IMG/VR virus record: IMGVR_UViG_3300027754_000008 | Coordinates: 1 to 53,922 of that record | Reading direction: 5' to 3' (one strand) | DNA: 53,922 nucleotides | From: a virus | Lineage: Duplodnaviria; Caudoviricetes | Shown: positions 30,873-34,809 of the stretch, in pieces | Layout: every line of letters starts with the position of its first letter | Numbering within the stretch: the first letter of the stretch is position 1 | The notes under the pieces: model-generated | What the model was told of the DNA's origin: nothing | Seen by the model: only the letters and a program-made list of their open reading frames with translations | Databases searched by the model: none | Program-made: the position numbers and the translations under genes

Positions 30873-31026
30873 AACAGTAATGAGCGAATACATCAAAGGT
30901 TTTGACCACGGGTGCGACTACATTGTTGCGGAGATTGAGAAATACATTAAGACCGTCAACAGCCATGACGCATTGGTGTTAGTTGACTTGGTCAAGCGAC
31001 TTAAGATGGAAGACAAACCAAAATGA
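30865..31026 (+). CDS. Small hypothetical protein (not in the ORF track)
   Basis: 53-aa ORF whose stop overlaps the MTase start (ATGA). Confidence 0.5.
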   Translation: MSETVMSEYIKGFDHGCDYIVAEIEKYIKTVNSHDALVLVDLVKRLKMEDKPK

Positions 31027-32063
31027 AATTCATTGAACTGTTTGCAGGCATAGGTGGGTTTCGCCTCGGGTTAGAGAAGGCGGGTCACGAGTGTGTGTGG
31101 GCTAATGAATTTACACCAAGGGCGGCAAGCATTTATGAACACAACTTTAAACACAAACCAGACGGACGAGACATCAGAAGAATTCATGTTGATGATGTCC
31201 CCAGCGCAGATTTACTCGTTGGAGGATTTCCATGCGCAACTTTCAGCGTTGCTGGTAGAAGAACAGGGTTTGGGACAGAAGATACACGAGGTACTCTCTT
31301 TTTTGAAATCTGCCGAATCCTATCTGGTAAGCGAATCCCATATCTATTCCTTGAGAATGTTAAGGGACTCCTCAATCACGACGGAGGAAGAACCTTTGGA
31401 GTTATCGTCGCAAGTCTGGATGAACTGGGGTATGACGTGCAATGGGAGTGTCTTAACAGCAAGAATTTCGGAGTCCCACAGAATCGGGAACGAGTCTTTA
31501 TTGTCGGAAATCTTAGAGGACACCCCAGACCAAAAGTATTTCCTGTCGGAAGAAGTTATGCAGAAGATAGCGTTCAACACCGAGGTGAACAAGATCAAGA
31601 ACCGAGGGTTCGGAGCGAAGGTGGTCTCACTATCGGAACACTCTGTCACAGACTTTACAAGGGAGACACTAACAACTTCTACCTTGCTGGACAAATACGA
31701 GGACAAGCTGAACAACTTGAGAACACTACAGCAGGAGGAGGTAGTACCACCGAATCAGATGAGTCTGTTCGAGCAGTCCTAACACCAGCAAAAGAAAAGA
31801 AGCGCCAGCGTGGTCGACGCATGAAAGAACATAACGAACCAGCATTCACTCTCACTGCGCAGGACAGGCATGGGTTGATGGTGGGTTCTAGGTTGCGCAG
31901 ATTCACACCGTTGGAATGTGAGAGGCTCCAGTCGCTACCTGATAACTGGACGCGCTGGTATGCAGATGGTTCAGAGGTTCCAGACACGCAACGATATGAG
32001 CGGTGTGGTCGTGCTGTTACTGTCAACGTGATATACGAAATTGCAAAGAGGTTACCAGCATGA
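31023..32063 (+). CDS. C5 cytosine DNA methyltransferase-family enzyme, predicted carboxymethyltransferase
   Basis: ELFAGIGG (I), GGFPC (IV), ENV (VI), QNRERVF (VIII), TPLECERLQ (IX); motif X is GRAV instead of GNAV/GNSV. Confidence 0.92.
   Translation: MKFIELFAGIGGFRLGLEKAGHECVWANEFTPRAASIYEHNFKHKPDGRDIRRIHVDDVPSADLLVGGFPCATFSVAGRRTGFGTEDTRGTLFFEICRILSGKRIPYLFLENVKGLLNHDGGRTFGVIVASLDELGYDVQWECLNSKNFGVPQNRERVFIVGNLRGHPRPKVFPVGRSYAEDSVQHRGEQDQEPRVRSEGGLTIGTLCHRLYKGDTNNFYLAGQIRGQAEQLENTTAGGGSTTESDESVRAVLTPAKEKKRQRGRRMKEHNEPAFTLTAQDRHGLMVGSRLRRFTPLECERLQSLPDNWTRWYADGSEVPDTQRYERCGRAVTVNVIYEIAKRLPA
31093..31782 (+). CDS. Nested alternative-frame ORF, putative second (beta-like) subunit of the transferase; start uncertain
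   Basis: 229 open codons inside the MTase; WMNWGM..NG....ES and LSEILEDTPDQKYFLS. Confidence 0.55.
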   Translation: MCGLMNLHQGRQAFMNTTLNTNQTDETSEEFMLMMSPAQIYSLEDFHAQLSALLVEEQGLGQKIHEVLSFLKSAESYLVSESHIYSLRMLRDSSITTEEEPLELSSQVWMNWGMTCNGSVLTARISESHRIGNESLLSEILEDTPDQKYFLSEEVMQKIAFNTEVNKIKNRGFGAKVVSLSEHSVTDFTRETLTTSTLLDKYEDKLNNLRTLQQEEVVPPNQMSLFEQS

Positions 32064-32875
32064 TTGACATCAAAAAGGTTTTGCTTCAAAGCGCAGGTAC
32101 ATCAAAGAATGACGCCGCTGTTTTGCTCAGTGCAGGGGTAGACTCATCCAGCGTTCTATTCGCGTTGCTAGAGGCTGGTAAGCGCGTTACAGCGTATTCG
32201 TTTTGCTTGGACGACAGAACGTCAACCGACGTGAAGTATGCGCAGATCACAGCAAAAGAATTTGGTGTACCGTTTGTGCAGATACCGTTACCGACAAGCA
32301 TTGATGTGCTCAGAGAAGACCTAGTTGACTTGGTGCGGTTCGGTGCAAAGAAGAAGACAGACTTTGAGTGTGGTTGGCCAATGCTCTACGCATACAAAGC
32401 AATCACTGAACGCGAGATATTTTCTGGCATGGGTGCAGACGGTCACTTCTGCATCAGCAAAAAAGGAATGATGCACTACAAAAACAGAATCGATGAATTT
32501 AGAAGCACGCTGTTTTTAAATCCATCATACGGTCAAGAGCACATTCATAGAAACCTTAGCAGGGTTTACAAAAAGTGCTGGGTGGCACCGTACATGACGC
32601 AAGAGATGATCGACGAGTTAAAAGGTACAACATGGGATGAGGTCAATCGTCCGCATCAGAAGCAACCAATACTTGATGCGTTCCCTGAGCAGTTCAAACG
32701 CATAAAAATTTTTAAGCACACCAACTTTCAAAAGGGTGACTCAGGTATCTCTGAGCATTTTGAAAAACTACTACATACTGACTTGAATGTTGGGAAGCAT
32801 AAGTCGGTCGTTGGAATCTACAACTACTTAGTCAAAAACTTATCGAAAGAAAATGATGAACTCTTGGACATTTGA
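32060..32875 (+). CDS. Asparagine-synthetase-like ATP-dependent amide ligase with no glutaminase domain
   Basis: PP-loop LLSAGVDSS, SGMGADGHF, K..FQ.G; ATGA-coupled to the MTase. Confidence 0.82.
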   Translation: MIDIKKVLLQSAGTSKNDAAVLLSAGVDSSSVLFALLEAGKRVTAYSFCLDDRTSTDVKYAQITAKEFGVPFVQIPLPTSIDVLREDLVDLVRFGAKKKTDFECGWPMLYAYKAITEREIFSGMGADGHFCISKKGMMHYKNRIDEFRSTLFLNPSYGQEHIHRNLSRVYKKCWVAPYMTQEMIDELKGTTWDEVNRPHQKQPILDAFPEQFKRIKIFKHTNFQKGDSGISEHFEKLLHTDLNVGKHKSVVGIYNYLVKNLSKENDELLDI

Positions 32876-33515
32876 TACACCAGAAATTGCAAACACATTC
32901 GACGCTCATGTGCGCGAACAACTACCGTGGTACGACATGGTCACCGATGCGGTGGTGTACATCGCTCGAAATTATTTGCCAGAGTATGGGGTGGTAGTTG
33001 ACATTGGTGCGTCAACAGGCAACATGATTGACAAACTTATGCCTTTGGCAAATGAACGCATAGCAGATATTGTTGCCATTGAAAAAAGCATTCCCATGTG
33101 CGCAATTCTTAAAAAGAAATACAACAAAAAAAGCGATTGTGTTGTTGTGGAAAACTCAGACGTAACCAGAGGAGACTTACCTAAAGCTGATGTGTATATT
33201 TTGTTTTTGACAATGATGTTCATTCCAATAGAAAAACGCAAAGCCTTAATCGACTCTATGAGAGCGAATTGCAAGCAGGGTGGGGTGATAGTAGTGGTGG
33301 ACAAGGTTTGTGATCATGGCGGGTACTTTGCGACTGTCCTGAAGCGCCTTACCATGCACTTCAAACTACAGCAGGGTGCCAAGCCAGAAGATGTGCTGAC
33401 CAAAGAGATGAGTTTGGCAGGGGTGCAGATACCCATCGACCCAGCCATTCTGGGGACGGACGCCAAACAATTTTTCCGCATGGGTGAGTTTGCAGGCTGG
33501 GTTATTGAGTGTTAG
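32853..33515 (+). CDS. cmoA: CmoA-like carboxy-S-adenosylmethionine synthase
   Basis: WTFD...ANTFDAHVREQLPWY, VDIGASTG, FLTMMFI...R, GGVIVVVDK; these resemble CmoA WTFD..VA..F..M..RS.PGY / DLGCS.G / FTLQF / GG.LV..EK. Confidence 0.75.
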   Translation: MMNSWTFDTPEIANTFDAHVREQLPWYDMVTDAVVYIARNYLPEYGVVVDIGASTGNMIDKLMPLANERIADIVAIEKSIPMCAILKKKYNKKSDCVVVENSDVTRGDLPKADVYILFLTMMFIPIEKRKALIDSMRANCKQGGVIVVVDKVCDHGGYFATVLKRLTMHFKLQQGAKPEDVLTKEMSLAGVQIPIDPAILGTDAKQFFRMGEFAGWVIEC

Positions 33516-34026: not shown

Positions 34027-34809
34027 ATGGAAAAAGCAAACTTCTCCCAACTCTTAAACGATGCCATCAACCAGCCGGGCATCCTGAGCAAGTGCTACAG
34101 CACCTTTCACGGCTACAGCCTTGGTAACCAACTCTTGGCATACAGCCAGTGCGTCGCACGCGACATTCCGCTTGGCCCTATCGCCACATTCAAAAAGTGG
34201 AAAGACCTTGGTCGCTCTGTGAGCAAAGGTCAAAAGGCTATTGCCTTGGTAATGCCCGTCACTGTCAGCAAAAAAGATGCGGCTGGCGAAAAGACTGGCG
34301 AGGTGTTCTCACTGTTCACCCTGAAAAACAATTGGTTTGTGCTCGGTCAGACTGAGGGCGACGATTACGCCGCTGAGGTGGTGATCCCAACATGGGACAA
34401 GGTCAAGGCTTTGGAAACCCTCAGCATCACAGAGGTGCCATTTAGCCACACTGATGGCAACTGCCAAGGCTACGCTTACGCGACCAGCATTGCCGTTAAC
34501 CCAGTGGCTGTATTGCCCCACAAAACCCGCTTCCATGAGATCGCTCACGTCGTGCTCGGTCACACAAAGGAAGGTCAACTGTCAGACAGCGAAGCAACGC
34601 CCCGTGACGTGCGCGAAGTCGAGGCTGAGGGTGTTGCCTACATCCTGTGCTCTTTGCTCGGTTTAGAGGGCTTACATGAGTCTCGTGGCTATATCCAGAA
34701 CTGGTTGAAGGGTGCAGAGGTTACTGATAAGACAGCCCAGCGCATTTTCAGCGCCGCCAACAAGATTTTGGAGGCTGGACAGGATAAGGGTAAGTCCTTA
34801 GAAAAATAA
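34027..34809 (+). CDS. ardC: ArdC-like antirestriction protein (ssDNA-binding domain plus zincin metallopeptidase)
   Basis: YSLGNQLL, ATFKKWKDLGRSVSKGQKA, HEIAH, EVEAE, GYIQNW. Confidence 0.85.
   Translation: MEKANFSQLLNDAINQPGILSKCYSTFHGYSLGNQLLAYSQCVARDIPLGPIATFKKWKDLGRSVSKGQKAIALVMPVTVSKKDAAGEKTGEVFSLFTLKNNWFVLGQTEGDDYAAEVVIPTWDKVKALETLSITEVPFSHTDGNCQGYAYATSIAVNPVAVLPHKTRFHEIAHVVLGHTKEGQLSDSEATPRDVREVEAEGVAYILCSLLGLEGLHESRGYIQNWLKGAEVTDKTAQRIFSAANKILEAGQDKGKSLEK

What the first reader, a model, noticed from the sequence alone, without database searches (positions are those of the whole stretch)
32001..32021. Motif X Asn-to-Arg (GRAV, Arg330) marks altered cofactor specificity
Seen: codon 32010-32012 (CGT) gives CGRAVTV where C5-MTases have GN[AS]V. 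Established: an engineered Asn-to-Lys change in M.MpeI (N374K), which I recall lies in motif X, lets the enzyme use carboxy-SAM and form 5cxmC. Inference: a natural counterpart in which Arg binds the Cx-SAM carboxylate. This supports the pathway call independently of gene neighbourhood. Motif IV also reads FPCAT rather than the usual PCQ.
Basis: partly seen in the sequence, partly recalled or inferred. Interest (0 to 1): 0.8.

Follow-up and report, generated by a model that had tools for sequence, protein, structure and literature searches.

The report
Phage DNA carboxymethyltransferase, second enzyme lineage
This phage gene looks like a DNA cytosine methyltransferase whose cofactor pocket has been rebuilt to transfer a carboxymethyl group, a chemistry proven in another phage in 2025, but here it arose separately in a different branch of the enzyme family.

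Summary
Codon 32010-32012 (CGT) is Arg330 of a 346-aa C5-cytosine methyltransferase homologue (31023-32063). It sits where M.HhaI has Asn304, and motif IV reads FPCAT.

Yang et al. (Nat Commun 2025, PMC12783734) showed that phage S-B43 CmoX uses carboxy-SAM, with Arg350 at this position contacting the carboxymethyl group.

New relative to that paper:
- The window enzyme lacks the SPPC motif used in the paper's census.
- It is nearer to M.HhaI than to CmoX, and it forms its own clade inside ordinary Gln/Asn enzymes. An AU test rejects one clade for all Arg-type enzymes (p 0.0006).
- The Gln-to-Ala and Asn-to-Arg changes go together in every readable relative.
- A cmoA homologue lies just downstream in 79 of 80 related viral loci, against 0 of 107 Asn-type control loci.

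Aside: the gene carries a conserved nested +1-frame ORF, probably a second enzyme chain.

This scan has noted both the Arg lineage (e1-3292634) and the nested ORF (e1-2569289 and others) before, on other DNA. No chemistry was measured.

The parts
31023..32063 (+). C5-cytosine transferase homologue (346 aa), read as a CmoX-like DNA cytosine-5 carboxymethyltransferase
   Evidence: PF00145 at E 2e-81 over residues 1-344. TIGR00675 at 286.6 bits, above its cut-off. M.HhaI at 172 bits and 8YF3 at 56 bits.
32010..32012 (+). CGT codon for Arg330 in motif X, at the position of HhaI Asn304 and SpCmoX Arg350
   Evidence: C-G-R was read in 79 of 80 related loci; the 80th was not covered.
31227..31241 (+). 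Motif IV, F-P-C-A-T: catalytic Cys71 followed by Ala72 where HhaI has Gln82
   Evidence: FPCAT was read in 80 of 80 related loci. Q82A in M.HhaI lowers methylation about 16-fold (PMC3526304 passages).
31093..31782 (+). Nested +1-frame ORF (229 codons), probably a second chain of the enzyme. Its conserved part (31501-31548) encodes L-L-S-E-I-L-E-D-T-P-D-Q-K-Y-F-L.
   Evidence: Open for 235 codons against a shuffled mean of 97; 1 of 1000 shuffles reach it. The wobble position switches to the +1 frame after motif VIII. +1 stops are depleted, 45 observed against 178 expected. Predicted complex score 0.76 against a best control of 0.01.
32060..32875 (+). CmoY-like ATP-dependent amide ligase (271 aa, Asn-synthase PP-loop domain, no glutaminase domain). 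Its ATG overlaps the transferase stop codon.
   Evidence: PF00733 at E 2e-11. 37% identity to S-B43 CmoY over 250 aa, E 3e-44, and the same length. phrog_26038 at E 3e-57.
32853..33515 (+). CmoA-like carboxy-SAM synthase (220 aa). It overlaps the 3' end of the ligase gene by 23 bases.
   Evidence: Best NCBIfam hit is TIGR00740 at 63.1 bits, below the cut-off. E. coli CmoA 4GEK at E 1e-8. Cofactor-contact residues are conserved and the K-E signature is shared with the assayed SpCmoA.

Best explanation
Gene 31023-32063 encodes a DNA cytosine-C5 transferase that uses carboxy-SAM instead of SAM and writes 5-carboxymethylcytosine on the phage genome. The catalytic machinery is that of a normal C5-methyltransferase: Cys71 attacks C6, and the ENV and QxRxR motifs are present. 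Two residues that flank the transferred group are changed together. The motif IV Gln becomes Ala72, which makes room and, by analogy with HhaI Q82A, disfavours methyl transfer. The motif X Asn becomes Arg330, which pairs with the cofactor's carboxylate. The last gene of the cassette (CmoA-like) makes carboxy-SAM from SAM and prephenate. The middle gene (CmoY-like ligase) then adenylates the new carboxyl group and joins it to an amine, most likely glycine or another amino acid. Shown here: the sequence features, their coupling, the gene linkage and the phylogeny. Inferred: cofactor use, DNA as the substrate, the final product and the target sequence. This enzyme is not a close relative of the published CmoX. 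The same pocket solution arose separately on an HhaI-like scaffold.
For: 1. R330 aligns with HhaI N304 and with the Arg of SpCmoX. L003:5502-6617 is identical to PDB 8YF3 chain A over 372 of 372 residues.
2. The paper's named Cx-SAM contacts F25, E47, F48, D69, C98 and R350 correspond to the invariant alignment columns F7, E29, F30, D50, C71 and R330.
3. Coupling of the two changes: 120 of 120 near homologues have G-R (117 with PCAT, 2 with PCGT, 1 with PCQD). Among 150 representatives, every readable PCAT goes with G-R (6) and every readable PCQ goes without it (125 G-N, 4 with another residue pair).
4. Linkage: a cmoA homologue lies downstream in 79 of 80 Arg-type viral loci, and the 80th contig ends 32 bases after the gene. 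A CmoA profile finds 77 of 80; two further copies are cut by contig ends. Asn-type control loci give 0 of 107 by tblastn and 0 of 107 by profile.
5. CmoY is 37% identical to the assayed SpCmoY. The CmoA-like protein keeps the cofactor contacts and shares the Lys-Glu pair with the assayed SpCmoA.
6. In M.HhaI, Gln82 and Asn304 lie next to the transferable group, and Q82A cuts methylation.
7. Separate origin: the window lineage is one clade (SH-aLRT 100) inside Gln/Asn enzymes. The AU test rejects one clade for all 17 Arg-type rows (lnL difference 144.5, p 0.0006).
Against: No chemistry was measured for this lineage.
- The CmoA-like protein scores 63.1 bits against a TIGR00740 cut-off of 193.3 and is only 21% identical to SpCmoA.
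- At the position of E. coli CmoA Arg199, which salt-bridges the carboxylate (PMC3663124), it has Glu. The assayed SpCmoA shows the same.
- The SPPC motif used to define the published CmoX set is absent.
- Only 12 of 80 relatives carry the ligase, so the end product differs within the lineage.
- Flanks were limited to 5 kb, so cmoA further away in control genomes would have been missed.
- The tree used a hand-picked subset: 12 of the Arg-type proteins, 30 of 127 G-N representatives and 12 named phage enzymes. It also used a quick search.
Confidence: 0.8

Rival explanations
1. It is an ordinary SAM-dependent 5-methylcytosine methyltransferase. Arg330 and Ala72 are tolerated or serve DNA binding, and the neighbouring CmoA-like gene does something unrelated, for example draining host SAM.
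For: All catalytic motifs of a C5-methyltransferase are intact. Wild-type M.MedI, with Asn, shows only weak carboxymethylation, so the pocket is somewhat permissive in both directions. The paper itself raises SAM depletion by CmoA as an open question.
Against: The two pocket changes are coupled in every readable relative. They track cmoA at 79 of 80 loci against 0 of 107. SpCmoX with the same Arg accepts only Cx-SAM. HhaI Q82A loses methylation rate.
Confidence: 0.07
2. The transferase moves a different group, because the divergent CmoA-like enzyme makes a SAM derivative other than carboxy-SAM.
For: The CmoA-like protein is far below the curated family cut-off. It lacks the Arg199 equivalent.
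Against: The assayed SpCmoA is also below the cut-off, at 115.6 bits, and has the same Lys-Glu pair. An Arg in the transferase pocket and a carboxylate-activating ligase next door both fit a carboxyl group.
Confidence: 0.06
3. The enzyme modifies RNA, for example tRNA as Dnmt2 does, or is a catalytically silent regulator, rather than modifying phage DNA.
For: Dnmt2-type tRNA enzymes share the fold (58.9 bits to 1G55). CmoA's cellular role is in tRNA modification.
Against: The protein is much nearer to DNA enzymes (M.HhaI 172 bits, M.HaeIII 127 bits). It sits in a phage early region next to an ArdC-like anti-restriction gene. The published homologous system acts on DNA.
Confidence: 0.03

Closest known systems
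CmoX of Synechococcus phage S-B43 (PDB 8YF3) with CmoA and CmoY (Yang et al., Nat Commun 2025, PMC12783734)
   Same: It has the C5-methyltransferase fold and Arg at the HhaI Asn304 position. The motif IV Gln is replaced by a small residue (Ser there, Ala here). The cofactor-contact residues are conserved. It is linked to a cmoA gene and to a 271-aa ligase without a glutaminase domain.
   Different: Identity is only about 32%. Motif IV reads GFPC, not SPPC, so it falls outside the paper's stated census filter. Gene order is X-Y-A rather than A-Y-X. It does not form one clade with SpCmoX. It carries a nested +1 ORF that SpCmoX lacks. The target sequence is unknown, whereas SpCmoX targets GC.
Engineered M.MpeI N374K and M.MedI N377K carboxymethyltransferases
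   Same: A basic residue replaces the motif X Asn and pairs with the carboxylate of carboxy-SAM (PMC12015181 passages; PMC12783734 Discussion).
   Different: Those carry Lys and keep the motif IV Gln context. They were made in the laboratory, still methylate with SAM and act on CG sites. The window enzyme is natural, has Arg plus Ala, and comes with its own cofactor synthase.
M.HhaI and its steric-engineering variants Q82A/N304A
   Same: M.HhaI is the nearest solved relative: 172 bits, and the N-terminal 161 residues align without large gaps. The two natural changes fall on the two conserved positions, one in motif IV and one in motif X, that were mutated to admit larger transferable groups.
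   Different: HhaI is a SAM enzyme with Gln82 and Asn304. The engineered variants carry Ala at both sites rather than Ala plus Arg. The region between motifs VIII and IX does not align.
M.EcoHK31I alpha/beta, a two-polypeptide C5-methyltransferase
   Same: A second polypeptide is encoded wholly inside the main gene in another reading frame, and its N-terminal part is dispensable (PMC2836561 and PMC3404938 passages).
   Different: There the small chain is said to carry motif IX. Here motif IX is in frame 0, and the nested frame carries the segment that follows motif VIII. Whether both chains are needed here is untested. The original 1995 paper was not held.
E. coli CmoA (PDB 4GEK, 4IWN) and H. 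influenzae YecO (1IM8)
   Same: These are the best structural and family matches of the third gene. The equivalents of Tyr39, Gly64, Ser66 and Phe137 are invariant in 62 of 62 phage homologues, and Glu164 is replaced by Asp.
   Different: The protein is shorter, at 220 aa. Arg199 is replaced by Glu, with an invariant Lys just before it. No CmoB partner is present; the product is passed to a DNA enzyme.

Membership tests
CmoX (DNA cytosine C5-carboxymethyltransferase, Yang et al. 2025) | C5-methyltransferase fold with the catalytic Cys of motif IV | tested here: met
   PF00145 at E 2e-81. Cys71 aligns with SpCmoX Cys98.
CmoX (DNA cytosine C5-carboxymethyltransferase, Yang et al. 2025) | Arg at the position of SpCmoX Arg350 and HhaI Asn304 | tested here: met
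   R330.
CmoX (DNA cytosine C5-carboxymethyltransferase, Yang et al. 2025) | SPPC motif (S95 P96 P97 C98), the filter used for the paper's 5,615-sequence census | tested here: not met
   The window has G-F-P-C. The filter wording is quoted.
CmoX (DNA cytosine C5-carboxymethyltransferase, Yang et al. 2025) | Common descent with SpCmoX, that is, one clade of Arg-type enzymes | tested here: not met
   The AU test rejects it: lnL difference 144.5, p 0.0006, on 55 rows. The window enzyme scores 172 bits to HhaI against 56 bits to 8YF3.
CmoX (DNA cytosine C5-carboxymethyltransferase, Yang et al. 2025) | cmoA gene in the neighbourhood | tested here: met
   It lies 0.8 kb downstream in the window, and is present in 79 of 80 related loci.
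CmoX (DNA cytosine C5-carboxymethyltransferase, Yang et al. 2025) | Cx-SAM-dependent formation of 5-carboxymethylcytosine in DNA | not testable with these tools
   This needs an enzyme assay or LC-MS of DNA.
CmoA (carboxy-SAM synthase) | Score above the curated cut-off of TIGR00740 | tested here: not met
   63.1 bits against a cut-off of 193.3. The biochemically assayed SpCmoA also fails, at 115.6 bits, so the cut-off does not decide the question for phage enzymes.
CmoA (carboxy-SAM synthase) | Arg199 salt bridge to the cofactor carboxylate (E. coli numbering) | tested here: not met
   Glu is aligned there in the window and in 58 of 62 phage homologues, including the assayed SpCmoA. The preceding Lys is invariant in 62 of 62.
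CmoA (carboxy-SAM synthase) | Other cofactor contacts (Tyr39, Asp62, Gly64, Ser66, Asp117, Phe137, Glu164 or Asp) | tested here: met
   with residue roles taken from PMC3663124 passages.
CmoY (5cxmC amide ligase) | Asn-synthase PP-loop domain without a glutaminase domain, similar to SpCmoY | tested here: met
   PF00733 at E 2e-11. 37% identity, E 3e-44, 271 aa in both.
CmoY (5cxmC amide ligase) | Residues that bind the glycine carboxylate | not testable with these tools
M.EcoHK31I-type two-chain C5-methyltransferase | A second ORF wholly nested in another frame and under selection of its own | tested here: met
M.EcoHK31I-type two-chain C5-methyltransferase | The small chain carries motif IX | tested here: not met
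   Motif IX (R-R-F-T-P-L-E-C-E-R-L-Q) is in frame 0. The nested frame carries the segment that follows motif VIII.
M.EcoHK31I-type two-chain C5-methyltransferase | Both chains are required for activity | not testable with these tools
   There is only a structure-model pass: 0.76 against a best control of 0.01.

The most novel reading that the evidence does not exclude
Natural DNA carboxymethyltransferases evolved at least twice. Besides the published SPPC-type CmoX, an abundant freshwater-phage lineage converted an HhaI-like enzyme by the paired change Gln-to-Ala (motif IV) and Asn-to-Arg (motif X). This second lineage works as a two-chain enzyme whose small chain is read from a nested +1 frame. 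A recoded synthetic gene would therefore be inactive, and the published census undercounts such systems.
Probability: 0.5. Interest if true: 0.65.

Novelty: new variant of a known kind. Interest (0 to 1): 0.42.

Why it matters
The principle, an Arg in motif X that selects carboxy-SAM, is already proven, so the finding mainly confirms a correct annotation of a phage DNA hypermodification cassette.

What it adds:
- **A second route to the same pocket.** This gives a natural minimal recipe, two residues on a well-studied HhaI-like scaffold, for turning methyltransferases into carboxymethyltransferases. Such enzymes are of direct use for sequencing methods such as DM-seq and CMD-seq.
- **A wider search criterion.** Searches that filter on SPPC miss a whole lineage. 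A motif-independent signature (a small residue after the catalytic Cys, plus Arg in motif X, plus cmoA nearby) would find more.
- **A practical warning.** The nested +1 ORF means the gene should be expressed from native, not codon-optimised, DNA.

Tried and rejected
- **Megablast against phage records.** The cassette found nothing. The best protein match to any deposited phage methyltransferase is 44.7%, so no named close relative exists in that collection.
I used the search for related loci on viral contigs to get control neighbourhoods instead.
- **Query P0136.** This distant Arg-type representative brought back only Asn-type viral loci, so those were counted as controls.
- **Searching viral contigs with SpCmoX.** All returned loci were at least 86% identical, so no Asn-type neighbours of SpCmoX could be obtained that way. 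I took ten named phage enzymes from the phage collection instead.
- **One frameshifted polypeptide.** I considered frame 0 shifting to +1 after motif VIII and rejected it as the leading reading. The conserved frame-0 strand F-I-V-G and the conserved +1 segment S-L-S-D-I-L-E are written in the same nucleotides, so one chain cannot hold both. In addition, +1 stops are depleted for 100 codons upstream.
- **Start codon of the nested ORF.** No single conserved start was found. In the window only weak Shine-Dalgarno-like sequence precedes GTG 31093 or ATG 31105.
- **Pfam on the +1 product.** No hit.
- **Lee et al. 1995 (PMC306636)** is not held. M.EcoHK31I is cited from passages in two later papers.
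- **Not done.** I ran no separate single-chain structure prediction or fold search of the transferase, and did not use sequencing runs. Target sequence specificity could not be inferred, because the region between motifs VIII and IX does not align to any solved enzyme.
- **Print search.** Searches for natural DNA carboxymethyltransferases found only PMC12783734. Searches on nested ORFs in C5-methyltransferases found only M.EcoHK31I and M.AquI.
Full report
**The object**

The window is a complete viral record of 53,922 bases. It has a 127-base terminal repeat and 48.1% G+C. Its large terminase is nearest to an uncultured freshwater phage (56%) and to Caulobacter phages (43%). The host is unknown.

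The finding lies in ORF 31023-32063 (+), which encodes 346 aa. This ORF matches the C5-cytosine DNA methylase family over its whole length (PF00145, E 2e-81; TIGR00675, 286.6 bits).

Bases 32001-32021 encode R-C-G-R-A-V-T, and the CGT at 32010-32012 is Arg330.

**What the position is**

HMMER aligns R330 with Asn304 of M.HhaI, G-R-A-V over G-N-S-V. A figure legend in PMC3526304 places HhaI Gln82 and Asn304 in motifs IV and X. The text of that paper says both lie close to the transferable group. It reports that Q82A lowers methylation about 16-fold and that N304A opens room for larger groups (passages).

The decisive literature is PMC12783734 (Results and Discussion read). It reports the following for Synechococcus phage S-B43:
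- The phage encodes CmoA (a carboxy-SAM synthase), CmoX (a C5-methyltransferase homologue that makes 5-carboxymethylcytosine) and CmoY (an ATP-dependent ligase that adds glycine).
- In the 1.9 Å structure 8YF3, HhaI Asn304 is replaced by Arg350, which contacts the carboxymethyl group.
- The wild type uses only Cx-SAM, and R350N is inactive with both cofactors.
- The authors note the parallel with engineered M.MpeI N374K.

I fetched the S-B43 locus. Its methyltransferase is identical to 8YF3 chain A (372 of 372 residues). In a three-way alignment, R330 falls on that Arg. The paper's other named contacts (F25, E47, F48, D69, C98) fall on invariant columns F7, E29, F30, D50 and C71. SpCmoX also lacks the motif IV Gln, reading S-P-P-C-S.

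**The neighbours**

- The next gene (32060-32875) starts at an ATG that overlaps the transferase stop codon. It has an Asn-synthase PP-loop domain without a glutaminase domain. It is 37% identical to SpCmoY over 250 residues (E 3e-44) and both proteins are 271 aa.
- The third gene (32853-33515) has CmoA as its best family and best structural match (TIGR00740, E 3e-17; 4GEK, E 1e-8). At 63.1 bits it is far below the curated cut-off of 193.3.
- The assayed SpCmoA also fails that cut-off, at 115.6 bits.
- E. coli CmoA Arg199, which salt-bridges the cofactor carboxylate (PMC3663124 passages), aligns with Glu in the window protein.
- The same Glu is seen in SpCmoA and in 58 of 62 distinct phage homologues.
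- The Lys just before it is invariant in 62 of 62, and the other cofactor contacts are kept.

The search for related loci returned 80 viral loci whose enzyme is 50-99% identical to the window's.

| Check | Arg-type loci (n = 80) | Asn-type control loci (n = 107) |
|---|---|---|
| Motif IV | F-P-C-A-T in 80 | PCQ in 106, one reads Y-Q |
| Motif X | C-G-R in 79, one not covered | Asn in 99, 8 not covered |
| cmoA by tblastn | 79 | 0 |
| cmoA by profile built from 62 sequences | 77 | 0 |
| Ligase homologue | 12 | 0 |

Sources.

- The one Arg-type locus without cmoA sits on a contig that ends 32 bases after the gene.
- Two of the cmoA copies missed by the profile are cut by contig ends.
- The controls came from two Asn-type nearest representatives and one distant query.

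Flanks were at most 5 kb, so distant cmoA genes in control genomes were not excluded.

**Coupling of the two changes**

Of the 120 nearest clustered homologues, 120 have G-R. Of these, 117 have PCAT, 2 have PCGT and 1 has PCQD.

Of the 150 nearest 50%-identity representatives:
- 127 have G-N; 125 of these have PCQ and 2 have PCP.
- 8 have G-R; 6 of these have PCAT and 2 have motif IV not covered.
- 2 have PCAT with motif X not covered.
- 6 have other residues.
- 7 are not covered.

No sequence combines PCQ with G-R or PCAT with G-N.

**A separate lineage**

- The window enzyme scores 172 bits to M.HhaI, 127 to M.HaeIII, 115 to a Dcm-like enzyme and 56 to 8YF3.
- SpCmoX scores 80 bits to M.HaeIII and 52 to M.HhaI.
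- The paper's census of 5,615 candidates required the SPPC motif as well as the Arg. The window's G-F-P-C fails that filter.

Named phage enzymes near SpCmoX all read SPPC:
- Mcat8, TurkishDelight and PaBG have G-R and an adjacent cmoA.
- LoVEphage, tooticki6-1, BMBtp14 and phi18:3 have G-M.
- Melnitz-2 has G-L.
- The G-M and G-L enzymes show no cmoA in the stretch fetched.

I built a tree of 55 rows, chosen by hand:
- the window enzyme;
- 12 Arg-type relatives;
- 30 of the 127 G-N representatives;
- 12 named phage enzymes.

The search was quick IQ-TREE with LG+C20. The tree puts the window lineage in one clade (SH-aLRT 100) inside the GFPCQ/G-N group (90). That group is apart from the SPPC group (99). 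Forcing all 17 Arg-type rows into one clade costs 144.5 log-likelihood units, and the AU test gives p 0.0006. I named the grouping before building the tree. The same two pocket positions were therefore changed independently.

**Mechanism**

I read the cassette as follows:
1. The CmoA-like enzyme makes carboxy-SAM.
2. The transferase writes 5-carboxymethylcytosine, with Arg330 holding the carboxylate and Ala72 giving room.
3. The ligase converts the carboxymethyl group to an amide.

The amine is probably glycine or another amino acid, given the likeness to SpCmoY. The residues that would decide this are described only in a supplement I could not open. The target sequence is unknown. Nothing here measures chemistry.

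**Aside: a nested reading frame**

The +1 frame of the transferase gene is open for 235 codons (31093-31782).
- Eight other window genes of similar length reach only 41-99 codons.
- Synonymous-codon shuffles of the gene average 97 codons, and 1 of 1000 reach 235.
- The excess is significant (p 0.05 or less, 100 shuffles each) in 62 of 62 distinct Arg-type genes and in 70 of 77 distinct Asn-type viral genes.

Counts of +1 stops over 66 dereplicated genes:

| Region | Observed | Expected |
|---|---|---|
| 100 codons before motif VIII | 45 | 178 |
| Codons +5 to +35 after motif VIII | 27 | 65 |
| From +110 to the gene end | 408 | 409 |

In 66 segments less than 80% identical, the most variable codon position is frame-0 position 3 up to codon +5 after the Gln of QxRxR. 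From +7 to +24 it is mostly frame-0 position 1, which is the wobble position of the +1 frame. The +1 consensus there is S-L-S-D-I-L-E-x-x-x-D-Q-K-Y-F-L-S, with L in 61 of 66, Y in 55 and L in 59. The frame-0 residues over the same bases are less conserved.

Several observations serve as checks:
- Some genes lack the open +1 frame. One of them (L093) carries a similar segment in frame 0, and two others (L188, L190) may.
- SpCmoX and ten other named phage enzymes show no excess. The one exception is high in G+C and is equally open in the +2 frame.

A structure model of the frame-0 protein with the first 80 residues of the conserved +1 segment supports binding:
- The score was 0.76 and the best of 3 controls was 0.01.
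- That mark was reached by 58 of 80 solved complexes and by 2 of 110 mismatched pairs.
- The three runs agree in at least 75% of contacts, and the partner's pLDDT is at least 68.
- My own alignments were used, so the calibration counts hold only roughly.
- The K-Y-F-L strand is placed against motif IX residues 291-295.

Single-chain C5-methyltransferase structures are solved, so this pass may reflect memory of that fold. It shows likeness, not binding.

The nearest precedent is M.EcoHK31I, whose beta chain is encoded entirely in another frame of the alpha gene (passages). There, however, the beta chain is said to carry motif IX.

This scan has reported the same nested gene on other DNA several times. 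It has also reported the Arg lineage. My analysis was made independently before I read those notes, and it agrees with them.

**Verdict**

The added value is threefold: a second, independently evolved enzyme lineage that the published census filter excludes, the strict pairing of the two pocket changes, and the probable two-chain build.

Noticed in passing
window 31093-31782 (+), and the same place in loci L004-L190: The +1 frame of the transferase gene is kept open, and after motif VIII it is the frame under selection. It encodes a conserved S-L-S-D-I-L-E...K-Y-F-L-S segment. This holds for Asn-type relatives too, so it is a property of this whole viral HhaI-like family. It is probably a second enzyme chain, as in M.EcoHK31I.
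   Followed up: partly
L283:4980-6679 (Staphylococcus phage SPbeta-like, KT429160.1): A cmoA gene sits directly upstream of a C5-methyltransferase homologue annotated hhaIM. That homologue keeps P-C-Q in motif IV and appears to have Gly, not Arg or Asn, at the motif X position (V-G-G-V-I-N). It may be a third pocket solution, or an unrelated use of carboxy-SAM.
   Followed up: no
L276, L277, L278, L279, L274 (Bacteroides LoVEphage, Flavobacterium tooticki6-1, Bacillus BMBtp14, Cellulophaga phi18:3, Melnitz-2): SPPC-type phage C5-methyltransferases near SpCmoX lack both the motif IV Gln and the motif X Asn (G-M-S-V-P-P or G-L-M-V), and no cmoA lies in the fetched stretch. Their cofactor is an open question.
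   Followed up: no
loci L004-L083: Only 12 of 80 relatives of the window's transferase carry the ligase between the transferase gene and cmoA. Most of the lineage may therefore stop at 5-carboxymethylcytosine or use a ligase encoded elsewhere. TurkishDelight (L275) has a ligase with a glutamine amidotransferase domain instead.
   Followed up: partly
window 34027-34809 (+): A 260-aa protein with an ArdC N-terminal domain (E 7e-10) and weak zincin/IrrE-like metallopeptidase matches lies 0.5 kb downstream of cmoA. This fits an anti-restriction neighbourhood.
   Followed up: no
window 32853-33515 and 62 homologues: Phage CmoA homologues, including the assayed S-B43 enzyme, have an invariant Lys followed by Glu where E. 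coli CmoA has Lys198-Arg199. The carboxylate-binding residue may have moved by one position.
   Followed up: partly
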